From an uncultured Anaerolineaceae bacterium (GTDB taxonomy: Bacteria; Chloroflexota; Anaerolineae; Aggregatilineales; Aggregatilineaceae), in contig CAYRWY010000106.1 of the NCBI GenBank assembly GCA_964427955.1, positions 1 to 14,747 on the forward strand: a DNA stretch of 14,747 bases, read 5' to 3'. Positions 1 through 14,747 of the stretch are shown here, piece after piece. Under the pieces are notes generated by a model that saw nothing but the letters and a program-made list of their open reading frames with translations, ran no database searches and was not told the DNA's origin. The position numbers and the translations under genes were made by a program. Positions within the stretch are counted from its first letter, which is position 1. Each line of letters opens with the position of its first letter.

Positions 1-1690
1 CCATCGGTCGCCGTGTACGTGAAAGCGTCGCTGCCGCTGAAGCCTGCCGTCGGCGCATAGTCGAAGGAGCCATCCGGGTTGAGGTTGAGCGTGCCGTGCG
101 CCGGACCGCTGTCCAGCGCCGCTGTCAGCGGATCGCCGTCGGGATCGGTGTCGTTCGCCAGCACGCCCGGCGCGGCGATAGTCAGCGGAATGTCCTCCGC
201 CGTGGTATAGCCCTCCGCCACCGCCACCGGCACATCGTTCACGGCATTGACCGTGATCGTCACCGTGACGCCGCTGCTGTTAGCCGCGCCATCCGTGGCG
301 TGATACGTGAAACTGTCGCCGCCGTTGAAGTTGGCCGTCGGCGTATAGTCGAAGGAGCCATTCGGGTTGAAGTTGAGTGTGCCGTGCGCCGGACCGCTGT
401 CCAGCGCCGCCGTCAGCGGATCGCCGTCGAGATCGCTGTCGTTATTCAGCACGCCCGGCGCGGCGATGGTCAGCGGCGTATCCTCCGGCGTGGTATAGCC
501 CTCCGCCACCGCCACCGGCGCATCGTTCACGGCATTCACCGTGATCGTCACCGTGACGACGTTACCGCCGGTCGTGGCGTCGCTCGCGTGATAGGTGAAG
601 CTGTCGCCGCCGTTGAAATTGGCATTCGGCGTATACACGAAGGAGCCATCCGCGTTGAGCGCCAGCGTGCCGTGCACCGGACCGCTGTCCAGCGCCGCCG
701 TCAGCGGATCGCCGTCGAGATCGCTGTCATTGCCCAGCACGCCCGGCGCGGCGATGGTCAGCGGCGTATCCTCCGGCGTGGTATAGCCCTCCGCCACCGC
801 CACCGGCACATCGTTCACGGCATTGACCGTGATCGTCACCGTGACGCCGCTGCTGTTAGCCGCGCCATCCGTGGCGTGATACGTGAAACTGTCGCCGCCG
901 TTGAAGTTGGCCGTCGGCGTATAGTCGAAGGAGCCATTCGGGTTGAAGTTGAGTGTGCCGTGCGCCGGACCGCTGTCCAGCGCCGCCGTCAGCGGAGTGC
1001 CGTCGGGATCGCTGTCGTTACTCAGCACACCCGGTGCGGCGATGGTCAGCGGCGTATCCTCCGCTGTGGTATAGCCCTCGGCTATGGCCACCGGGGCATC
1101 GTTCACCGCCACAACTGTGATCATCACCAGGGCGACGTTACCGCCGGTCGTGCCATCCGTGGCGTGATACGTGAAACTGTCGCCGCCGTTGAAATTGGCA
1201 CTGGGCATATAGCTGAAGGAGCCATTCGGGTTGAGCGTCAGCGGGCCGTGCGTGGGATAGGTGTCCAGCACTGCCGTGATGGGATCGCCATCGGGATCGC
1301 TGTCATTATTCAGCAGGCCCGGCGCGGCGACGTTCAGCGGCGTGTCTTCCTGCACACTGTAACTGTTGGCCACGGCCATCGGCGCGTCGTTCACCGCACT
1401 GATGGTGATCGTCACCGTGGCGACACCGCTGTCAGCCAGGCCATCCGTGACGTGATACGTGAAACTGTCGCTGCCGGAATAATTGTAGCCCGACGTATAG
1501 CTGAAGGAGCCATTCGGGTTGAGCGTCAGTGCGCCGTAGGTGGTTCCGCTGTTCAGCACTGCCGTCATGGGATCGCCATCCGGATCGCTGTCATTGCCCA
1601 ACACACCCGGCGCGGCGATGGTCAGCGGTGTGTCCTCCGGCGTGGTGTAGGAGTTCCCCACGGCTGCCGGTGGACTATCGATGTCCAGGG
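1..1690. repeat. Intragenic tandem DNA repeat, period 288 bp (=96 aa), >=6 copies in the window and continuing past the window start. There is a 576-bp higher-order unit with near-identical non-adjacent copies
   Basis: The motif gagccatYcgggttga recurs at 67, 355, 643, 931, 1219 and 1507, exactly 288 bp apart. Positions 241-300 are identical to 817-876, and about 355-420 to 931-996, which is 576 bp apart. The antisense ORF (96..1961) translation repeats itself with a 192-aa period. Confidence 0.85.
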
Positions 1691-2276
1691 TCAGCGCCCA
1701 ACTATTGAGTGTGCCGGTGTTCATGGAGGAATAATCATACACGTACAGGGTCCATGTTCCGGCCACGGGTTGACCGTCGAAGGTGCTGAGCGGCTGTTGG
1801 GGCGTATAGGATGTCCCGGTGGGCGGATCGGCATCCTCGACGGGGCCGCCCGTCGACTCGTCATCCAGCAGCGTAATAATGTTATCGCTCGAAAAGAGGC
1901 AGCCATAGGGGTTAGGCCCTCCGGGCCGGTCCACGAGCGTGACGCTGATCCCGCCCGGTGAGACTAGCACGACTGCCAGGTCGCTGACCCAGGTATGAGT
2001 GATATTCAGGCTCACATTCACATCCCGGATGGGTCCATTCGTGGGCACGGTGATGGTGCTCACGGCTGGATCGCCGTGCCCGCTGTTGAGGCAGCCTGCT
2101 TCGGGGTCGTCGGCGATGAGCACCGCAGTGGTATTGGAGTACGTTACGACCGTGGAGAGAAGGTCGGCGGGTGGCCGGGAACGCTCATCGGCAGAAACGC
2201 TGTGTACCAGAGGGAGGGAAAAAAGGGCGATAAACACGATCACAAAGATTCTTCGGACGATAGTTAGCCACGACAT
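1..2276 (-). CDS. Secreted surface/adhesin-like protein, 3'-partial (C-terminus lies beyond the window start). Signal peptide + standalone proprotein-convertase-type P-domain + >=6 tandem ~96-aa cadherin-like (VCBS / 'tandem-95'-type) repeats
   Basis: Hand translation of the reverse complement from ATG (complement of cat at 2274-2276) gives MSWLTIVRRIFVIVFIALFSLPLVHSVSA|DE, a classic signal peptide. It is preceded on the minus strand by GGAAG about 8 nt upstream. The next ~190 aa carry P-domain hallmarks (NVSLNITHTWVSDLAVVLVSPGGISVTLVDRPGG ... GTWTLYVYDYSSMNTGTLNSWALTL). They are followed by repeats of the form VNDAPVAVAEGYTTPEDTPLTIAAPGVLxNDSDxDGDPLTAALDSGPAHGTLNxNPNGSFDYTPTANFNGGDSFTYHATDG. 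The frame stays open to position 1. The ORF track does not list it because it lists only ORFs with both a start and a stop inside the window. Confidence 0.8.
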   Translation of the reverse strand, partial: MSWLTIVRRIFVIVFIALFSLPLVHSVSADERSRPPADLLSTVVTYSNTTAVLIADDPEAGCLNSGHGDPAVSTITVPTNGPIRDVNVSLNITHTWVSDLAVVLVSPGGISVTLVDRPGGPNPYGCLFSSDNIITLLDDESTGGPVEDADPPTGTSYTPQQPLSTFDGQPVAGTWTLYVYDYSSMNTGTLNSWALTLDIDSPPAAVGNSYTTPEDTPLTIAAPGVLGNDSDPDGDPMTAVLNSGTTYGALTLNPNGSFSYTSGYNYSGSDSFTYHVTDGLADSGVATVTITISAVNDAPMAVANSYSVQEDTPLNVAAPGLLNNDSDPDGDPITAVLDTYPTHGPLTLNPNGSFSYMPSANFNGGDSFTYHATDGTTGGNVALVMITVVAVNDAPVAIAEGYTTAEDTPLTIAAPGVLSNDSDPDGTPLTAALDSGPAHGTLNFNPNGSFDYTPTANFNGGDSFTYHATDGAANSSGVTVTITVNAVNDVPVAVAEGYTTPEDTPLTIAAPGVLGNDSDLDGDPLTAALDSGPVHGTLALNADGSFVYTPNANFNGGDSFTYHASDATTGGNVVTVTITVNAVNDAPVAVAEGYTTPEDTPLTIAAPGVLNNDSDLDGDPLTAALDSGPAHGTLNFNPNGSFDYTPTANFNGGDSFTYHATDGAANSSGVTVTITVNAVNDVPVAVAEGYTTAEDIPLTIAAPGVLANDTDPDGDPLTAALDSGPAHGTLNLNPDGSFDYAPTAGFSGSDAFTYTATD

Positions 2277-2374
2277 ACGGTAATCTTCCTTGTTGAGAAT
2301 TTGACACGTAAGCGGGCTGGTATGAGCAGGATATGCGGCAACGGCGAGGATTGAAAGTGCCAGACCAGTTGCCC

Positions 2375-2383
2375 ATCAGTATA
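2375..2383 (-). promoter_or_regulatory. Candidate extended -10 (TGaTATACT on the minus strand) for the adhesin-like gene, about 100 nt upstream of its ATG
   Basis: The plus-strand agtatatca, reverse-complemented, reads TGATATACT. No convincing -35 was found. Confidence 0.3.
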
Positions 2384-2429
2384 TCACTAATAACTCCCCG
2401 GTCCAAAGCAAATCAGGGATTTCGAGCGG

Positions 2430-2457
2430 GCCGTCACACGTGCTGCAAATGTGATAC
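2430..2457 (+). promoter_or_regulatory. Candidate sigma70-type promoter for the DinG-like gene: -35-like GTCACA, 16-bp spacer, extended -10 TGaTACAAT
   Basis: tgatacaat at 2449-2457, about 50 nt upstream of ATG 2507. GGAG lies 6 nt before that ATG. Confidence 0.4.
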
Positions 2458-2506
2458 AATAGCGCCTTCCAGCACGGTGCTTGATCGTCTAGAAACGGAG
2501 TCTGTC

Positions 2507-5311
2507 ATGCGCGAGGTGTTCGTCACTCTGGACCTGGAGACCACCGGTCTCAACGCGGAGGAAGATGCCATCATCGAAGTGGGGGCCGCCCGGTTCCAGG
2601 CCGGCAAGGTGCTCGACACCTTCAGCACATTGATCAATCCGGGTCGCAGCGTGCCGGATCGCGTCACCGCCATTACCGGCATTCGCACCGAGGACCTGGT
2701 CGGCAAGCCGTCCATCCGCCAGGTGATCGGCGATCTGCGCGAGTTCGTGGGCAGCCATCCCATCGTCGGACATCGCATCGACTTCGATCTCAGCTTCCTG
2801 AGCAGCTACGGCGTCGGATCGGGCAATCTTGCGATTGACACCTACGACCTGGCCTCGGTCATGCTGCCGACTGCGCCGCGTTATAACTTGAACAGTCTGA
2901 CCAGCCAGGTCGGCCTGGAACTCGAACACGCCCACCGCGCCCTGGACGATGCCACGGCCACCGGGCAGTTGTACTGGGTCCTCTGGGAGCGCATCCTGGC
3001 CCTGCCGCTGGACACGCTGCAAGAGATCGTCGAAGCCTCGCGCGACATCGAATGGAGCGCCGGATCGGTTTTCGTCGCGGCCTTGCAGGAGCGCAGCAAG
3101 ACGGCCCTCACCGGCCAGCCGGCCCGCCGTGCCCCGGTGGAGAACGTCGAAGACCTCTTCAAGCCGGATCGTAAGCCCTGGGCCCCGCTGCGCCCGAATG
3201 CCGATCTCAAGCTGCTGGACGTGGAGCAGTTGGCCGGGCTGATCGAGGAAGATGGCCGGATAGCGCAGGCTTTCCCCGGCTACGAGCACCGCCCGCAGCA
3301 GGTCGAGATGCTGCGCAAAGTGGCCGAAGCCTTTAACGAGGGCGAGCACCTGATGGTCGAAGCGCCGACCGGCGTCGGCAAGAGCATGGCCTACCTGCTG
3401 CCCGCGCTCTATTGGGCCACCCAGAACAACGAGCGGGTGGTGATCAGCACCAACACCATCAATTTGCAGGATCAATTGATCAACAAGGATCTGCCGGGCC
3501 TGTCCGACGCGCTGGGGCTGGCGTTCCGCGCCGCCGTGCTCAAGGGCCGCGGCAATTACCTCTGCCCGCGCCGCCTGCTGACGCTGCGCCGCCGCACGCC
3601 GACTTCGATCTCCGAGCTGCGCGTGCTGGCCAAGATCCTGGTCTGGCTGCTGGAATCGGATACCGGCGACAAGGGCGAACTCACCCTGCGCGGCCTGGAA
3701 GAGAACGCGATCTGGTCCCGGCTGAGCGCGGAGGACGAAGGCTGCACGCTGGAGCGCTGCGGCGACCAGATGCACGGCGCCTGCCCGTTTTACAAGGCCC
3801 GCCGCGCGGCGGAATCCGCGCACGTGATCGTCGTCAACCATGCGCTGCTGCTGGCCGACGTCCAGATCGGCAGCCGCGTCGTGCCCGAATACCAGTACCT
3901 GATCGTGGACGAAGCGCACCACCTGGAAGAAGCGACCACCAACGGGCTGTCCTTCTCGATCAATCAGGCCACCTTGCAGCGCCGCCTGGACGACCTGGGC
4001 GGGATGCGCCGGGGGCTGCTGGGCGACGTGCTGCGCAGCACGCGCGGCAGCGTGCCGGGCAAATACTTCACCCAGATCGAGAGCTACGTCCAGATCGTCA
4101 GCGAGGCGCTGGAGGCGATGGGCCGCCACGCCGAACGCTTCTTCGAGATTCTCTACCGTTTCCTGGAAAGCACCGGGGAATTGAAGCCGGGTGAATATTC
4201 CAGCCAGGTGCGCATTACCGACGCGCTGCGCCACCAGCCGCAGTGGGGGCAGGTGGAAGAAGGCTGGGACCTGCTCAGCCAGTTCACGCAGGCGATTTCG
4301 TCGGCGATGGCCCGCCTGGCGAAAGGGTTGGCCGGGCTGAATGAGTTCGACGTGCCGAACTTCGACGATCTGCTGTCCAGCGTCCAGGCGGCGGCGCGCC
4401 ACCTGGAAGAAGTGCACCGCCAGTTGGGCGCGTTTTCAATCAGCCCCCAGGACAACGTGATCTACTGGGTGCAGGTCGATCAGGACGGCACGCGGCTGTC
4501 GATCCACGCCGCGCCGCTGCACGTCGGCCCGCTGCTGGAACAGCACCTCTGGACGGCCAAGCGGTCGGTGATCCTGACCAGCGCCACGCTGCGCACCGGC
4601 GGCACCTTCGAGTACGTGCGCGACCGGCTGAACGCCTTCGAGGTGGTCGAAGCCGTGGTCGGCTCGCCCTTCGATTATGAAAAGAGCACGCTGGTCTACG
4701 TCCCGACCGACATGCCCGATCCCAGCCGCCGTGACGATTACCAGCGCGCCGTCGAGCGCGGCCTGATCGAGCTGGCAGCGGCCACGCGCGGACGCTTGCT
4801 CGGCCTGTTCACCAGCTACGCCCAGCTCCGCCAGACCGCCCAGAACATCGCGCCCCGGCTGGCGCTGGGCAACATCACCGTCTTCGACCAGAGCGACGGC
4901 ACCAGCCGCCAGGCCTTGTTGGACGGCTTCGTCAAGACCGAGCGATCCGTGCTGTTGGGCACGCGCTCGTTCTGGGAAGGCGTGGACATCCCCGGCCAGG
5001 ACCTTAGCGCCCTGGTGATCGTCCGGCTGCCGTTCGCCGTGCCCAGCGAGCCGGTTTTCGCCGCGCGCTCCGAGCAGTACGACGACAGCTTCATGAACTA
5101 CGCCGTGCCGGATGCCGTGCTGCGCTTCCGCCAGGGCTTCGGGCGGCTGATCCGCACCAAGACGGATCGCGGCGTGGTCGTGTTGTTCGACAGCCGCGTG
5201 ATCACCAAGAAGTACGGGCAGGTCTTTCTCGACAGCCTGCCGGGCTGCACGCTGCGGCGCGGTCCGCTGGCTGAACTGCCGCGCGCGGCGGTGGAATGGA
5301 TTGGGGATTAG
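2507..5311 (+). CDS. dinG: DinG-family protein: N-terminal DnaQ-like DEDDh 3'-5' exonuclease fused to a DinG/Rad3-type Fe-S ATP-dependent DNA helicase (Firmicutes-type DinG architecture)
   Basis: Start taken at MREVFVTLDLETTGL (Exo I motif at the very N-terminus), not the track's 2333 start. Exo II is HRIDFDLSFL and Exo III is HRALDDATATG. Walker A is MVEAPTGVGKSMAYLLPA and the DEAH box is LIVDEAHHLEE. A four-Cys cluster (LCPRR ... CTLERCGDQMHGACPFY) resembles the XPD/DinG Fe-S domain. The C-terminal helicase motifs and the stop at 5309-5311 complete the gene. Confidence 0.9.
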   Translation: MREVFVTLDLETTGLNAEEDAIIEVGAARFQAGKVLDTFSTLINPGRSVPDRVTAITGIRTEDLVGKPSIRQVIGDLREFVGSHPIVGHRIDFDLSFLSSYGVGSGNLAIDTYDLASVMLPTAPRYNLNSLTSQVGLELEHAHRALDDATATGQLYWVLWERILALPLDTLQEIVEASRDIEWSAGSVFVAALQERSKTALTGQPARRAPVENVEDLFKPDRKPWAPLRPNADLKLLDVEQLAGLIEEDGRIAQAFPGYEHRPQQVEMLRKVAEAFNEGEHLMVEAPTGVGKSMAYLLPALYWATQNNERVVISTNTINLQDQLINKDLPGLSDALGLAFRAAVLKGRGNYLCPRRLLTLRRRTPTSISELRVLAKILVWLLESDTGDKGELTLRGLEENAIWSRLSAEDEGCTLERCGDQMHGACPFYKARRAAESAHVIVVNHALLLADVQIGSRVVPEYQYLIVDEAHHLEEATTNGLSFSINQATLQRRLDDLGGMRRGLLGDVLRSTRGSVPGKYFTQIESYVQIVSEALEAMGRHAERFFEILYRFLESTGELKPGEYSSQVRITDALRHQPQWGQVEEGWDLLSQFTQAISSAMARLAKGLAGLNEFDVPNFDDLLSSVQAAARHLEEVHRQLGAFSISPQDNVIYWVQVDQDGTRLSIHAAPLHVGPLLEQHLWTAKRSVILTSATLRTGGTFEYVRDRLNAFEVVEAVVGSPFDYEKSTLVYVPTDMPDPSRRDDYQRAVERGLIELAAATRGRLLGLFTSYAQLRQTAQNIAPRLALGNITVFDQSDGTSRQALLDGFVKTERSVLLGTRSFWEGVDIPGQDLSALVIVRLPFAVPSEPVFAARSEQYDDSFMNYAVPDAVLRFRQGFGRLIRTKTDRGVVVLFDSRVITKKYGQVFLDSLPGCTLRRGPLAELPRAAVEWIGD

Positions 5312-9822: not shown

Positions 9823-10179
9823 ATGCGGACACCTGCGGGTAAAGAGTGCCCTCATTATTACGAAGACTTCATGCGCGGGCGGCACGTGCAAGAGTGCCGC
9901 CTGGCCAAAGAGAACTCCGAGTCGCTGCGCTGGAAGGCGGGCGACTGCGCGAAATGCCCCGTGCCGGAGATTTTGCAGGCCAACGCCAGCCCGGACATGG
10001 AACTGACTCTCACCATCCGGGGGGCGCTGCTGGGCTTTGTGCGCCAGATGAAGGTCACGGCGCGCTGCCTCAAGCACGACCGCCCGATTGACAATCCCTA
10101 CGTCGGCTGTCCGCTGGACGCCGAAGAAAATGACGCCCTGCGCCTGTTCAAAGACGCGCTGGAAAAGTCCGACGAGTAG
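9823..10179 (+). CDS. Small (about 119 aa) Cys-rich hypothetical protein, possibly a zinc-ribbon-like metal-binding protein
   Basis: I take the ATG at 9823, within track ORF 9817..10179. The product is MRTPAGKECPHYYEDFMRGRHVQECRLAKENSESLRWKAGDCAKCPVPEIL...ARCLKH...VGCPLD (CP-x-YY, EC, DCAKCP). I do not recognise the family. The CDS call rests on the promoter, a frame track-confirmed from 9817 to the stop, and tight coupling to the next gene. Confidence 0.55.
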   Translation: MRTPAGKECPHYYEDFMRGRHVQECRLAKENSESLRWKAGDCAKCPVPEILQANASPDMELTLTIRGALLGFVRQMKVTARCLKHDRPIDNPYVGCPLDAEENDALRLFKDALEKSDE

Positions 10180-10196
10180 AAAAACGGAGGGTTGCG

Positions 10197-11231
10197 ATGC
10201 TTCATCCTACACTGGACGACTGGCGTAATCTGTATGGGCTGATGGATCGTGTGAAGACGCTGGCTCCCTGGCGTTGGATGAATGAAGACGCTATCTTCAG
10301 CGTGCAGAATCCCGACGGCGGAGAACAGGGGTACGTGAGCGTGATGGGGACGCTCGGCGAGCACCTGGCCATCAGCGTGTACCTGGGGGCGCGGGGCCTG
10401 TCCGGCTTCTGGAGTATGCAGGAGGCTGGTCCGGCGATTCAACCGGAGCGGCTGTTCGAAATTCCGCAGCTTCAGGCGTCGTTCGAGGATCGGGATCAGC
10501 TCGACGACCACGACCGTGCGAATATCAAAGAGCTTGGCCTCAAATATCGCGGCAAACAGGCCTGGCCGCACTTTCGCAGCTACCGCCCCAGCTTTGTCCC
10601 CTGGTATCTGGAGCAGGCCGAAGCGCGCTTCCTGGCGGCGATCCTGGAACAACTGCTGGACGTTGCTCCCCGTTACCAGTTGAATCACGCCCTGTTCCGC
10701 GGACCCACGCGCGATCATTATCTGTGCCGCGTACCGCGCGGCAGCGGGGATAGCCGCACCTGGGAGGACCAGTTCATCGTACCGGCGCAGGAGGAAACGG
10801 TCGGCCTCAACCTGCGCATGAACCTGGAGGCGCTGAACTATTTGAAGAAACTGCCGCCCACCCGGCAGCAGGTCGAGATCGACCTGTTCATGCTGCTGTC
10901 CGGCGTTCGGGAAAAAGGCGAGGATGCTCGTCCTTACTTCCCGTCCGTGCTGCTGACCCTGGACGTGCGCAGTAAGATGGTGATCGGGACCGAAATGATT
11001 CCCCCGCTGCCCACCCTGGAAAGTGTGTATGAGCAGACCCCGGGCTATGTCGTGACCCAACTGGCGCAGGCGGGCTTGCGTCCGGGCGTCGTCACGGTGC
11101 GCCACGATATGCTGTATCAGGTTTTGGGGCCGATCTCCAAAGAACTGGGCTTCAAGCTGATCAAGCGTCGCCATCTCCCCAATCTGGACAAGGCGAGGAT
11201 GTCGCTGATGCAGTGGATGGGCGTCTACTAG
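10197..11231 (+). CDS. Hypothetical soluble 344-aa protein of unrecognised family
   Basis: GGAGG lies 8 nt upstream of the ATG, and the gap to the upstream gene is 17 nt (operonic). No TM segments or nucleotide-binding motifs are apparent. There is an acidic patch (EDRDQLDDHDRANIKELGLKYRGKQAWPHFRSYRPSF). Confidence 0.75.
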   Translation: MLHPTLDDWRNLYGLMDRVKTLAPWRWMNEDAIFSVQNPDGGEQGYVSVMGTLGEHLAISVYLGARGLSGFWSMQEAGPAIQPERLFEIPQLQASFEDRDQLDDHDRANIKELGLKYRGKQAWPHFRSYRPSFVPWYLEQAEARFLAAILEQLLDVAPRYQLNHALFRGPTRDHYLCRVPRGSGDSRTWEDQFIVPAQEETVGLNLRMNLEALNYLKKLPPTRQQVEIDLFMLLSGVREKGEDARPYFPSVLLTLDVRSKMVIGTEMIPPLPTLESVYEQTPGYVVTQLAQAGLRPGVVTVRHDMLYQVLGPISKELGFKLIKRRHLPNLDKARMSLMQWMGVY

Positions 11232-11355: not shown

Positions 11356-13179
11356 ATGTCTGATTTTCTTCCGATCTTATGTCTGGCAGGACTGGCCGTA
11401 CTGCTGTTGTTTGTGCTGGCCTTTTCCCGTGTGATCCTGGGACTGGTCATCATCAACGAGCGGCAGGTCGGCGTGGTGATCAAGAAACTCTCCCGGCACA
11501 GTCTCCCCGCCGGGCAGTTCGTCGCGCTGAATGGGGAAGCGGGCTACCAGGCCGATACGCTGGCTCCCGGCTGGCATTTCTGGCGCTGGCCCTGGGTCTA
11601 CACCGTCCAGAAAGCCCCGGTGATCGTCGTACCGCAGGGCGAGATCGCGCTGGTGGTCGCCGCCGACGGCGTGTCGATCCCGCCGGAGCGCATCCTGGGC
11701 CGCATCGTCCCCTGCGATAACTTTCAGGACGCCCGCAAGTTCCTGATGAAGGGGGGCGAAAAAGGCCGCCAGTTGGGGATTCTGACCGCCGGGACGTATC
11801 GCATCAACCGCGCATTGTTCAACGTCATCACGGCGGAAACGGCCCGTGAAAATGGCATGGCTCCCGAACTGCTCCAGGTCCACCGCGTCGCGCCGGATCG
11901 CGTCGGGATCGTGACGACCCTGGACGGGATGCCCATCGAGCAGGGCGAGATCGCCGGGCCGATTGTCGAGGGCCACGATAACTTCCAGAACGCGCAGAAC
12001 TTCATCGCGGCGGGCGGGCGGCGTGGCTTGCAGGAGCAAATTCTGCTGTCCGGCGCGTGGAACCTGAACCCCTGGTTCGTGCAGGTCGAGCAGGTGCCCA
12101 TGACCGAAATTCCCATCGGCTACGTCGGCGTCGTGATCTCGTATGTCGGCAAGGCACACGAGGACGTCAGCGGCGCGGAATTCAAGCACGGCGATCTGGT
12201 CAATGCCGGGCACAAGGGTGTGTGGGTGACCCCGCTCTATCCCGGCAAGCACCCGATCAACAACCGGGTCATGAAGACCGAGCTGGTCCCGACGACCAAT
12301 ATCGTGCTCAACTGGGCGGATCGCACCGAGGCGCACAACTATGACGCCAAGCTGTCGTCGATCACCGTGCGCTCGCGGGACGGCTTCGCCTTCGACCTGG
12401 AAGTCTCGCAGATCATTCACGTCGGGGCGTTGGATGCGCCGAAGGTGATCTCGCGCGTCGGCTCGATGCAAAATCTGGTCGATCACGTGTTGCAGCCCAT
12501 CGTCGGCAACTACTTCCGCAACGCGGCACAGAACTACACCGTGCTCGACTTTCTGATCGCGCGCAGCGAGCGCCAGTCGGAAGCCGCGCAGCACATCCGC
12601 GAGGCGATTGGGCTGTACGACGTGCAGGCGATTGACACCCTGATCGGCCACATCACACCGCCCGAAGCGCTGATGCAAACCCTGACCGACCGCAAGATCG
12701 CGGAGGAACAGCGCAAAACCTACGAGGTCCAGCAGGAAGCGCAGACCCAGCGCCAGCAGTTGGTCCGCGAAACGTCGATGGCCGACATCCAGCAGCAGAT
12801 GGTCAAGTCGGAGCAGGGCGTGAACATTGCCGGGCTGGACGCCGATGCCCGCATCAAGCAGGCGACCGGCGAGGCCGAATCGATCAAACTGCGCGCGGCG
12901 GCGGATGCCGAAGCGATCCGGATCACCGGCGTGGCGAAGGCGCAGACCTACAAACTGGGCGCGCAGGCGCTCGGCGCGCAGAGCTACACCGCGCTCCAGT
13001 TGATGCAGTTGGTGGGCGAGAACCAGATTCGCGTCGTGCCCGATGTCGCCGTCAGCGGCAGCGCCGGGGGCGGCGGCCTGGTCGATGCGCTGATCGGCAT
13101 GATGCTGCGCAACCGTGTCGGCGGCGATGGCGACGTCTCGCAGGTCTTCGTCGATCCGGACAAACCGGCGGCTGGCTAA
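11356..13179 (+). CDS. SPFH/Band-7 domain flotillin-family membrane protein (FloT/YqiK-like)
   Basis: N-terminal TM segment (FLPILCLAGLAVLLLFVLAF). The SPFH-like region has the duplicated motif GxxIVxxxDNFQxAxxFxxxGG. The C-terminus is an Ala/Glu/Gln-rich coiled coil with flotillin-type repeats (IKQATGEAESIKLRAAADAEAIRITGVAKAQTYKLGAQALGAQSY). The RBS is GGAGGTGG. Confidence 0.9.
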   Translation: MSDFLPILCLAGLAVLLLFVLAFSRVILGLVIINERQVGVVIKKLSRHSLPAGQFVALNGEAGYQADTLAPGWHFWRWPWVYTVQKAPVIVVPQGEIALVVAADGVSIPPERILGRIVPCDNFQDARKFLMKGGEKGRQLGILTAGTYRINRALFNVITAETARENGMAPELLQVHRVAPDRVGIVTTLDGMPIEQGEIAGPIVEGHDNFQNAQNFIAAGGRRGLQEQILLSGAWNLNPWFVQVEQVPMTEIPIGYVGVVISYVGKAHEDVSGAEFKHGDLVNAGHKGVWVTPLYPGKHPINNRVMKTELVPTTNIVLNWADRTEAHNYDAKLSSITVRSRDGFAFDLEVSQIIHVGALDAPKVISRVGSMQNLVDHVLQPIVGNYFRNAAQNYTVLDFLIARSERQSEAAQHIREAIGLYDVQAIDTLIGHITPPEALMQTLTDRKIAEEQRKTYEVQQEAQTQRQQLVRETSMADIQQQMVKSEQGVNIAGLDADARIKQATGEAESIKLRAAADAEAIRITGVAKAQTYKLGAQALGAQSYTALQLMQLVGENQIRVVPDVAVSGSAGGGGLVDALIGMMLRNRVGGDGDVSQVFVDPDKPAAG

Positions 13180-13200
13180 TCTCCCATTCGATTTCGACAC

Positions 13201-13244
13201 AAAAAACGGCGGCTCTCCACCCGGAGGGCCGCCGCTGTTTTTAT
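13201..13244. terminator. Bidirectional rho-independent terminator shared by the convergent flotillin (+) and pilin-like (-) genes
   Basis: aaaaaa CGGCGGCTCTCC accc GGAGGGCCGCCG ctgttttta. It has a 12-bp GC-rich stem with one mismatch, an A-run 5' and a T-run 3'. Confidence 0.7.
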
Positions 13245-13259
13245 TCCCGTGCTGCGCGA

Positions 13260-13733
13260 TCAGGGGACATTGGCCTTGATGGTGCATTTCCCGGTGTTGC
13301 CGTCCGCATCATAGGCCACGGCGGCGAACTCATGCGGCCCCTTGGATCCGGTATAGGGATCGCAGGCCGCATCCCCGCCGATCAGGCAGTAGCGGTAGTG
13401 GACCTCGTTGTTGCGGGGGATGCCATCGACATAGAACTGGACATTCGTGATGTTGTTTTCCCCGACGTTGTCGGTCACCTGCGCTTCGAGTCGGAAGGGG
13501 GAGTTGGAGACGATGTTACAGCTCACGTCCAGTGCCACGCAGAAGGGGGCATCGATATTCGGATCGATTGAAAAGGCCGCTTTGCAGTAGGTCTTTTGCA
13601 CCCGATCCCCGAAGAAGGACGCGATCAGAATGACGACGACCGCGACCAGGATCAGGATCAGGGCATATTCGACCAGCCCCTGACCCCGTTCCCTTATTCT
13701 GGGCTTACCGTCTTTTTCCTTATGTGGTTCCAT
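13260..13733 (-). CDS. Prepilin-type (class III signal peptide) Flp/TadE-like pilin or pseudopilin-like protein with a 6-Cys C-terminal globular domain
   Basis: MEPHKEKDGKPRIRERG|QGLVEYALILILVAVVVILIASFF has a basic leader, the G/XXXXEY processing motif with E at +5, and a hydrophobic helix. The C-terminal roughly 110 aa contain six Cys (YCK, FCVALDVSC, YCLIGGDAAC, GKC). GAGG lies 6 nt upstream on the minus strand. Confidence 0.8.
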   Translation of the reverse strand: MEPHKEKDGKPRIRERGQGLVEYALILILVAVVVILIASFFGDRVQKTYCKAAFSIDPNIDAPFCVALDVSCNIVSNSPFRLEAQVTDNVGENNITNVQFYVDGIPRNNEVHYRYCLIGGDAACDPYTGSKGPHEFAAVAYDADGNTGKCTIKANVP

Positions 13734-13874: not shown

Positions 13875-14000
13875 GGAATCGCTTGGCGAGTATGAAACTA
13901 CTGTACCTCGTTCTCGTGCACCGCGCCAATTTTTGGGCGATTATTCCGGCATCGAGCAGCGATAATATTCCCTAACGTTTACCGGAGAAAGGGGTTAACC

Positions 14001-14747
14001 ATGGGTACACTCACAGGCAAAGTAGCCCTGGTCACGGGCGCGAGTCGCGGAGTTGGCCGGGGAGTCGCCTTGAGTCTGGGCGAAGCGGGCGCGACGGTGT
14101 ACGTCACCGGGCGGACGGTGGACGAAACGCAGGCCGTGGTGCCGCTCACCGGAACCGTCCACCAGACCGCCGCCGAGGTCACCCGGCTGGGCGGGCAGGG
14201 GATCGCCGTGCGCTGCGATCACCGCGACGACGGGCAGGTCGAAGCCGTGCTACAGCGCATCCGGGACGAGCAGGGACGGCTGGATATTGTGGTCAACAAC
14301 GCCTGGGCCGGTTACGAGGGCTACCACAGCAACACCTACCCGCCGCCGAATGTCCCGTTTTGGGAGAGGCCGCCGTCGTTTTGGGACGACAATCTGATCG
14401 GCGTGCGCTGGACCTATGTCACCAGCCGGTTTGCCGTCCCGATCATGGTGGCCCAACCGCGCGGCTTGATCGTGAACATCTCCTTTGGCGCGCTGACGCC
14501 GGGCAACGCCGCCTACAACGTCGCCAAGACGGCCACGGACCGGCTGTCCTGGGAGATGGCCCAGGCGCTGCGCGAGCATCAGATTACCGTGCTGTCTCTC
14601 TATCCGGGGTTGGTCCGCACCGAAGGGGTGCTGCTGAACGCGCAGTATTTCGATCTGTCCAACTCCGAGTCGCCGCAGTTCACCGGGCGGGCAGTGGTGG
14701 CGCTGGCTGCCGACCCTCGCGTGCTGGATCGCTCCGGACAGGCATGG
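14001..14747 (+). CDS. Short-chain dehydrogenase/reductase (SDR) family oxidoreductase, 3'-partial (runs off the window end)
   Basis: MGTLTGKVALVTGASRGVGRGVA carries the TGxxxGxG Rossmann motif. There is an NNAW (NNAG-like) motif and the catalytic Y-x3-K in AAYNVAKTA. GGAG lies about 13 nt upstream of the ATG, and a possible -10 GATAAT is at about 13961. Confidence 0.9.
   Translation, partial: MGTLTGKVALVTGASRGVGRGVALSLGEAGATVYVTGRTVDETQAVVPLTGTVHQTAAEVTRLGGQGIAVRCDHRDDGQVEAVLQRIRDEQGRLDIVVNNAWAGYEGYHSNTYPPPNVPFWERPPSFWDDNLIGVRWTYVTSRFAVPIMVAQPRGLIVNISFGALTPGNAAYNVAKTATDRLSWEMAQALREHQITVLSLYPGLVRTEGVLLNAQYFDLSNSESPQFTGRAVVALAADPRVLDRSGQAW

What the first reader, a model, noticed from the sequence alone, without database searches (positions are those of the whole stretch)
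1..2276. Unlisted minus-strand gene for a signal-peptide + standalone P-domain + cadherin-like-repeat surface protein; the 621-aa plus-strand ORF over it is an antisense artefact
The six-frame track shows only a low-complexity R/H/G-rich 621-aa plus-strand ORF here. The opposite strand encodes a clean secreted protein whose frame is open to the window edge. It has a signal peptide, a proprotein-convertase-type P-domain with no attached protease domain, and at least six 96-aa VCBS/cadherin-like repeats. P-domains normally sit C-terminal to subtilisin/kexin catalytic domains. An N-terminal orphan P-domain leading a repeat adhesin is an unusual architecture. It suggests a large cell-surface or biofilm adhesin, and the true protein is probably much longer.
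Basis: partly seen in the sequence, partly recalled or inferred. Interest (0 to 1): 0.55.

Follow-up and report, generated by a model that had tools for sequence, protein, structure and literature searches.

The report
Edge-truncated secreted repeat protein, P-domain head
The left end of the window really does carry a minus-strand gene for a secreted protein with a P-domain followed by cadherin-like repeats, but this domain combination is already seen in related bacteria, so the finding is correct and ordinary.

Summary
The minus strand of 1..2276 is one open frame of 758 codons that runs off the window edge. It starts at the first ATG after an in-frame stop and has an AAGGAAG ribosome-binding site. 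It encodes a Sec-type signal peptide, a P-domain, and five complete plus one truncated 96-aa tandem-95 / Big_9 / cadherin-like repeats. The P-domain is supported by Pfam PF01483 (57.8 bits against a cutoff of 21) and by an AlphaFold model that best matches the P-domains of Aeromonas ASP, furin and Kex2. The 621-aa plus-strand ORF is an antisense shadow. It has no Pfam hit, a GC3 of 0.60 against 0.79 for the minus frame, and four times fewer synonymous differences among repeat copies. The gene was "unlisted" only because the ORF lister omits ORFs that run off an end.

The claim of an unusual architecture is not supported. An exhaustive search found 14,302 cluster representatives with this P-domain type. 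Only 4 of 58 relatives scanned carry a subtilase. Four complete Anaerolineae-type proteins of 446-619 aa have the same layout. One of them is already named "proprotein convertase P-domain-containing protein" at NCBI. The window's gene is a repeat-expanded member of that small, uncharacterised family from a Chloroflexota genome. Its role as an adhesin is inferred, not shown.

The parts
1..2276 (-). Partial CDS (N-terminal 758 codons; the C-terminus lies beyond the window edge) for a secreted protein with a P-domain and tandem-95 repeats
   Evidence: Open frame with no stop. First start codon after an in-frame stop. GC3 0.79, like the neighbouring genes. Pfam and NCBIfam hits.
2285..2291 (-). 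Shine-Dalgarno-like AAGGAAG, 8 nt upstream of the ATG
   Evidence: Read directly from the sequence.
2190..2276 (-). Predicted Sec signal peptide, aa 1-29 (MSWLTIVRRIFVIVFIALFSLPLVHSVSA|DE)
   Evidence: n/h/c organisation and hydropathy profile. Homologues P0205, P0052, P0143 and P0131 have equivalent hydrophobic N-termini. SignalP was not run.
1677..2156 (-). P-domain beta-sandwich, aa ~41-200 (the Pfam PF01483 match covers aa 84-197 = 1686..2027)
   Evidence: PF01483 at 57.8 bits against a cutoff of 21. AlphaFold model with mean pLDDT 79.5. Its best PDB matches are the P-domains of Aeromonas sobria serine protease (3wqb, 3hjr), furin (1p8j) and Kex2 (2id4).
1386..1673 (-). Repeat 1 (aa 202-297), tandem-95 / Big_9 / cadherin-like
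1098..1385 (-). Repeat 2 (aa 298-393)
810..1097 (-). Repeat 3 (aa 394-489); 95% identical to repeat 5 in both protein and DNA
522..809 (-). Repeat 4 (aa 490-585)
234..521 (-). Repeat 5 (aa 586-681)
3..233 (-). Repeat 6, truncated by the window edge (aa 682-758, 77 of 96 residues)
96..1961 (+). 621-aa antisense shadow ORF, not a gene
   Evidence: No Pfam hit. 21% Arg and GC by codon position 0.80/0.52/0.60. Only 85 of 570 codon differences among repeat copies are synonymous in this frame, against 199 of 570 in the minus frame.

Best explanation
This is the 5' part of a gene from a Chloroflexota (Anaerolineae-like) genome. It encodes a Sec-exported extracellular repeat protein. After the signal peptide is cleaved, the mature protein begins with a P-domain-type beta-sandwich with no protease attached. 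An array of at least six 96-aa cadherin-like (tandem-95 / Big_9 / VCBS) domains follows directly.

Shown: the coding strand, the domain identities, the P-domain fold, and the existence of complete relatives with the same layout.

Inferred: the repeats form an extended, probably calcium-stiffened stalk. The P-domain acts as a protease-independent binding or capping module at the N-terminal end. The missing C-terminus resembles that of the short relatives (a Pro/Thr/Ala-rich linker plus a Cys-containing domain of about 150 aa). The protein serves in surface attachment or matrix interaction. Repeats 3 and 5 are 95% identical in DNA, which points to recent expansion of the array by tandem duplication.
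For: Coding strand. Domains. P-domain fold.

Family with the same layout: P0205 is 61% identical over 84% of the first 310 aa and is a complete 467-aa gene. P0052, P0143 and P0131 are further members.

This P-domain type is mostly not attached to subtilases: 4 of 58 relatives scanned carry one.

Export: the N-terminal Sec-type signal is conserved in homologues. No type I secretion or sortase genes lie next to the relative's gene or in the window.

Host: the DinG-like neighbour is 70-75% identical to Anaerolineae, Ardenticatenia and Aggregatilinea MAGs.
Against: No functional data exist for any member. The adhesin role is inferred from domain types only.

The C-terminus is missing, so an anchor or a catalytic domain beyond the edge cannot be excluded.

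The closest complete relatives are small (1-3 repeats), not giant adhesins.

Signal-peptide cleavage was not tested with a dedicated predictor. If the segment is an uncleaved anchor, the topology is reversed.

The gene is not syntenic in related genomes, so context says nothing about function.
Confidence: 0.6

Rival explanations
1. The protein is the N-terminal part of a secreted multidomain enzyme, such as a protease, whose catalytic domain lies in the missing C-terminal part. On this reading the P-domain is not truly orphan.
For: Some relatives of this P-domain sit in proteins with Peptidase_S8, reprolysin-like M12B, M43 or trypsin domains. NCBIfam gives a sub-threshold partial match of the repeats to a myxosortase-dependent M36 metallopeptidase model (72 bits, cutoff 1500).
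Against: In those enzymes the P-domain lies C-terminal to the catalytic domain, at residues ~600-1000. All four complete relatives with an N-terminal P-domain followed by these repeats have no peptidase domain.
Confidence: 0.1
2. The N-terminal hydrophobic segment is an uncleaved signal anchor. The protein would then be tethered to the membrane by its N-terminus, with the P-domain next to the cell and the repeats projecting outward.
For: The h-region is long (about 14-15 hydrophobic residues) and follows an RR pair. No cleavage predictor was run.
Against: A canonical small-residue c-region (V-S-A at positions -3 to -1) follows the h-region, after a helix-breaking Pro at position 22. Homologues also end their h-regions with A-x-A-like motifs.
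Confidence: 0.15
3. The protein is a structural or matrix component (sheath, S-layer-like or extracellular scaffold) rather than a ligand-binding adhesin.
For: Anaerolineae are filamentous (own knowledge). Repeat arrays of Ig-like or cadherin-like domains also occur in structural proteins. The repeat resembles a phage collar-sheath protein domain.
Against: Nothing separates this from the adhesin reading. No SLH or other known cell-wall-binding domain is present in the available part or in the relatives.
Confidence: 0.2
4. The plus-strand 621-aa ORF (96..1961) is the real gene.
For: It is a long ORF with a GTG start.
Against: It has no family hit, is 21% Arg, and has GC3 0.60 against 0.77-0.86 in real genes of the window. 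Its substitution pattern among repeat copies is mostly non-synonymous. The opposite strand has very strong HMM hits.
Confidence: 0.01

Closest known systems
Anaerolineae 'proprotein convertase P-domain-containing proteins' (P0205; the P0052 cluster of 32 members; P0143 = NCBI MCC7210042.1; P0131)
   Same: Signal peptide, a spacer of about 40 aa, an N-terminal P-domain, then Big_9/cadherin-like repeats directly after. Identity to the window protein over the head is 49-61%.
   Different: They have only 1-3 repeats and are 446-619 aa long. The window's protein already has six repeats in 758 aa and is incomplete. Their linker and Cys-containing C-terminal domain cannot be checked here.
P-domains of kexin/furin proprotein convertases and of Aeromonas sobria serine protease (PDB 1p8j, 2id4, 3hjr, 3wqb)
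   Same: Same fold by Foldseek (probability 1.00, E 5e-7 to 1e-5, 14-20% identity) and the same Pfam family, PF01483.
   Different: In those proteins the domain is fused C-terminal to a subtilisin-like catalytic domain, which it stabilises (PMC2605481). Here it is N-terminal and no catalytic domain is present in the available sequence.
Tandem-95 repeat / VCBS / bacterial cadherin-like repeat proteins (NF012211, TIGR01965, PF17963, PF17803, PF17892)
   Same: Six 96-aa repeats score far above the curated cutoffs. Hundreds of close repeat homologues at 50-69% identity occur across many phyla.
   Different: Most of those hits show no PF01483 in their precomputed domain lists. Only P0205 among the 120 listed does.
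BapA/LapF/RTX-type giant adhesins secreted by type I systems
   Same: Long arrays of Ig-like or cadherin-like repeats with Asp-rich loops. The NCBIfam adhes_GNV_Cterm model matches the repeats weakly.
   Different: The score of 98.4 is below the cutoff of 180. This protein has an N-terminal Sec signal rather than relying on a C-terminal T1SS signal. No T1SS genes are nearby.

Membership tests
Pfam P_proprotein (PF01483), P-domain fold | HMM score above the gathering threshold | tested here: met
   57.8 bits against a cutoff of 21, aa 84-197, profile positions 2-86 of 86.
Pfam P_proprotein (PF01483), P-domain fold | Jelly-roll beta-sandwich that superposes on solved P-domains | tested here: met
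   AF2 model with pLDDT 79.5. Top Foldseek PDB hits are the P-domains of ASP, furin and Kex2, probability 1.00.
Kexin/furin-type proprotein convertase (subtilase S8B) | Subtilisin-like catalytic domain N-terminal to the P-domain | tested here: not met
   No Peptidase_S8 hit in the 758 aa. The P-domain starts about 10 residues after the predicted signal-peptide cleavage site.
Tandem-95 repeat protein (NCBIfam NF012211) | Tandem repeats of about 95 aa scoring above the curated cutoff | tested here: met
   452.7 bits against a cutoff of 90, six stretches. 288-nt DNA period, 5.7 copies.
VCBS repeat (TIGR01965) | HMM score above the cutoff | tested here: met
   87.8 bits against a cutoff of 15.5, five stretches.
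BapA/Bap/LapF large adhesin (NF045619) | HMM score above the curated cutoff | tested here: not met
   98.4 bits against a cutoff of 180. The match is to the repeats only.
T1SS-secreted RTX adhesin | C-terminal RTX nonapeptide repeats and secretion signal, with adjacent ABC/MFP genes | tested here: inconclusive
   The C-terminus is missing from the window. No HemolysinCabind hit in the available part. No T1SS genes in the window or beside the relative P0152.
Sec-dependent secreted protein | Tripartite N-terminal signal peptide with an SPase I site | tested here: inconclusive
   The n/h/c regions and V-S-A at -3 to -1 are seen by inspection and hydropathy and are conserved in homologues. No dedicated predictor was available.
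Anaerolineae P-domain-head family (P0205, P0052, P0143, P0131) | Signal peptide, N-terminal P-domain and adjacent Big_9/cadherin repeat(s) | tested here: met
   49-61% identity from the signal peptide through the first repeat, with the same Pfam order.
Anaerolineae P-domain-head family (P0205, P0052, P0143, P0131) | Pro/Thr/Ala linker and a Cys-containing C-terminal domain of about 150 aa | not testable with these tools
   This part of the gene lies beyond the window edge. The domain is not encoded elsewhere in the window.

The most novel reading that the evidence does not exclude
The signal peptide plus N-terminal P-domain 'head' defines an undescribed, Anaerolineae-restricted family of surface proteins. 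The layout would be a P-domain head, a tandem-95 stalk of variable length, and a Cys-containing C-terminal domain with no Pfam match. In this family a fold best known as a protease chaperone domain would have been recruited as a protease-independent ligand-binding tip. Stalk length would evolve quickly by repeat duplication, from 1 to at least 6 copies.
Probability: 0.3. Interest if true: 0.3.

Novelty: new member of a known kind. Interest (0 to 1): 0.15.

Why it matters
It matters mainly for annotation. Two points follow for the scan. ORF listings that drop edge-truncated ORFs can leave a high-GC antisense shadow ORF as the only visible feature. And an orphan P-domain should not be read as unusual in bacteria, because this domain type is a promiscuous extracellular module.

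Biologically, the gene adds one repeat-expanded member to a small, uncharacterised family of secreted proteins in filamentous Chloroflexota. Nothing here opens a new question or challenges current understanding.

Tried and rejected
1. Recovering the full gene. An exact look-up of the neighbouring DinG-like protein found no contig on record. Related genomes found through DinG (L001-L008) have no homologue of the target in their flanks (tblastn), so there is no synteny and no full-length orthologue. The metagenome scan gave only P-domain relatives at 44% identity or less, not the source contig.

2. A word-index search with the 216-aa head alone found only one weak hit. The exhaustive HMMER search and a query that included the first repeat were needed to find the family.

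3. A sequence-only comparison of the head with the PDB found nothing. Fold comparison was needed.

4. The C-terminal domain of the short relatives has no Pfam hit even at E<=1. Only two other proteins carry it. It is not encoded in the window.

5. Literature searches for bacterial non-protease P-domains and for 'tandem-95 repeat' returned only passing mentions in genome annotations.

6. Rfam and tRNA scans of the window found nothing.

7. The reading of the plus-strand ORF as a gene was rejected.

Full report
**Observation**

Translating the reverse complement of 1..2276 gives 758 codons without a stop. The frame starts at the ATG at 2276. That ATG is the first ATG/GTG/TTG after an in-frame stop 34 codons upstream. 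It is preceded by AAGGAAG at 2291..2285 with an 8-nt spacer. The frame is still open at base 3, so the gene is cut by the window edge.

The ORF lister shows only the plus-strand ORF 96..1961 here. By its own description it omits ORFs that run off an end. That technical rule, not biology, is why the gene was "unlisted".

**Which strand codes**

Three independent lines agree.

- The minus-strand product has very strong family hits (below). The plus-strand 621-aa product has none and is 21% Arg.
- GC by codon position is 0.60/0.52/0.79 in the minus frame. The other genes of the window have GC3 of 0.77-0.86. The plus ORF shows the mirror image, 0.80/0.52/0.60.
- Among the six repeat copies, 199 of 570 differing codons are synonymous in the minus frame. 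Only 85 of 570 are synonymous in the plus-ORF frame.

The plus ORF is therefore an antisense shadow of the kind common in GC-rich DNA.

**Anatomy**

- aa 1-29 (MSWLTIVRRIFVIVFIALFSLPLVHSVSA|DE) has the n/h/c layout of a Sec signal peptide, with V-S-A at -3 to -1. No dedicated predictor was available, so cleavage is inferred.
- Pfam places P_proprotein (PF01483) at aa 84-197 (57.8 bits, cutoff 21).
- An AlphaFold2 model of aa 31-310, built on a 16-sequence alignment, has mean pLDDT 79.5. It shows a beta-sandwich spanning about aa 41-200.
- The best Foldseek matches of that model in the PDB are the P-domains of Aeromonas sobria serine protease (3wqb, 3hjr), furin (1p8j) and Kex2 (2id4), all at probability 1.00. 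Sequence comparison alone found no solved relative.
- From aa 202 onwards there are 96-aa repeats: five complete and a sixth cut at residue 77.
- The repeats hit Big_9, Cadherin_4 and Cadherin_5 (E 1e-133 to 2e-115). They also hit NCBIfam tand_rpt_95 (452.7 bits, cutoff 90) and VCBS (87.8 bits, cutoff 15.5).
- In DNA the period is 288 nt with 5.7 copies.
- Copies 3 and 5 are 95% identical in both protein and DNA. Copies 1 and 2 are 62-69% identical in protein to all the others. This indicates recent duplication inside the array. A repeat array of this kind is also a plausible reason for an assembly to end here (inference).

**Origin and context**

The divergently oriented neighbour (2333..5311, +) is a DinG-like protein with an RNase_T exonuclease domain and helicase domains. 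It is 70-75% identical to proteins of Anaerolineae, Ardenticatenia and Aggregatilinea MAGs. The window is therefore from a Chloroflexota genome.

None of those relatives has a homologue of the target in up to 10 kb of flanking DNA. The rest of the window encodes an MFS transporter, two histidine kinases, EF-P, a DUF7309/DUF6930 protein and a Band_7 protein. None is a secretion or anchoring partner.

**Is the architecture unusual?**

No. An exhaustive HMMER search with the 216-aa head found 14,302 cluster representatives at E<=1e-3 and 4,605 at E<=1e-10. Many are giant proteins with several P-domains. I scanned 58 relatives with Pfam:

| Sample | Source | With Peptidase_S8 |
|---|---|---|
| 14 ORFs from metagenome loci | | 4 |
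| 10 best N-terminal matches | | 0 |
| 34 further representatives | | 0 among the 25 most frequent families listed |

In the third sample, one-member families beyond rank 25 were not shown. The other partners across all three samples are reprolysin-like and M43 metallopeptidases, trypsin, lysyl oxidase, TSP_3, HYR, CotH, PKD, dockerin, SLH and T9SS sorting domains, or nothing at all. This P-domain type is thus a promiscuous extracellular module.

The sample is ranked by similarity to this particular P-domain. It describes this subtype, not all P-domains.

**The same layout elsewhere**

Four complete proteins share the layout: signal peptide, N-terminal P-domain, then Big_9/cadherin-like repeats directly after.

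- P0205: 467 aa, 61% identical over 84% of the first 310 aa.
- P0052: 473 aa, a cluster of 32 members. JGI names one member "subtilisin-like proprotein convertase family protein".
- P0143: 446 aa, NCBI MCC7210042.1, [quoted passage not shown].
- P0131: 619 aa.

They have one to three repeats, then a Pro/Thr/Ala-rich linker and a Cys-containing C-terminal domain of about 150 aa with no Pfam match.

The gene for a P0052-cluster member (P0152) stands alone among sugar ABC-transporter genes. No type I secretion or sortase genes lie nearby. The window's gene is best read as a repeat-expanded member of this family. Whether it ends in the same C-terminal domain cannot be tested.

**Mechanism**

Shown: the protein has a Sec-type N-terminus, a P-domain fold without a protease in the first 758 residues, and an array of cadherin-like domains.

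Inferred from general knowledge of such domains:

- The repeats, each with an Asp-rich NDSDPDGD loop, form an extended and probably calcium-stabilised stalk.
- The P-domain, a galactose-binding-like jelly roll, acts as a binding or capping module rather than as a protease chaperone.
- The protein functions in attachment or in the extracellular matrix.

Rivals are given in the rival-explanations section of this submission. They are a catalytic domain in the missing part, an uncleaved N-terminal anchor, and a purely structural role. No member of the family has been studied experimentally. The literature searches returned only annotation-level mentions.

**Comparison with known families**

The protein is a member of the PF01483 domain family and of the tandem-95/VCBS repeat proteins by curated thresholds. 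It is not a proprotein convertase, because it has no S8 domain. It fails the BapA/LapF adhesin model (98.4 bits against a cutoff of 180).

**Verdict**

The claim of an unusual architecture does not hold. This is a new, larger member of a known but uncharacterised kind. Interest is low.

Noticed in passing
window 13260..13733 (-): A 157-aa ORF whose N-terminus (RGQGLVEYALILILVAVVVILIASFFG) looks like a Flp/Tad-type pilin signal and helix. It is followed by an unusually long Cys-containing extension of about 110 aa. Pfam hits are all below threshold: Flp_Fap 16.9 bits (cutoff 32.2), Class_IIIsignal 14.6 and Big_7 20.3.
   Followed up: partly
window ~14001..14747 (+): A second edge-truncated gene, also absent from the ORF list. 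It starts MGTLTGKVALVTGASRGVGRGVA, a short-chain dehydrogenase-like TGxxxGxG motif (own knowledge), and runs off the right end of the window. The listed minus-strand ORFs 13979..14182, 13995..14222 and 14250..14579 are probably its antisense shadows.
   Followed up: partly
L052:1633-2052 (P0205 C-terminus); L053-L055:8997-9416: The short relatives of the target share a Cys-containing C-terminal domain of about 140-150 aa with no Pfam match even at E<=1. Otherwise it was found only as a standalone 135-aa Anaerolineae protein (P0286) and fused to SH3_3/SH3_4 domains (P0287). It is a candidate lineage-specific anchoring or binding module.
   Followed up: partly
P0092 and P0137 (not in the window): Two further proteins have a head 48-50% identical to the target (signal peptide plus P-domain). 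They carry a different repeat of about 75 aa with no Pfam match (…CNLDNLNVTITAGDTPFNITGTGPGLPLNNV…) and a different conserved C-terminus. The P-domain head is therefore combined with several kinds of body.
   Followed up: no
window 2333..5311 (+): A DinG-like protein with an N-terminal RNase_T exonuclease domain. Relatives align only from query residue 23-61 onward. The true start may therefore lie downstream of 2333, and the divergent intergenic region may be longer than 56 bp. A sigma-70-like match on the minus strand at 2405..2378 lies in that stretch.
   Followed up: no
window 10098..11174 (-) and 11377..13287 (-): Two more long antisense shadow ORFs (358 and 636 aa) lie opposite the DUF7309/DUF6930 and Band_7 genes. 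Neither has a Pfam hit. This is the same artefact class as the 621-aa ORF in the finding.
   Followed up: yes
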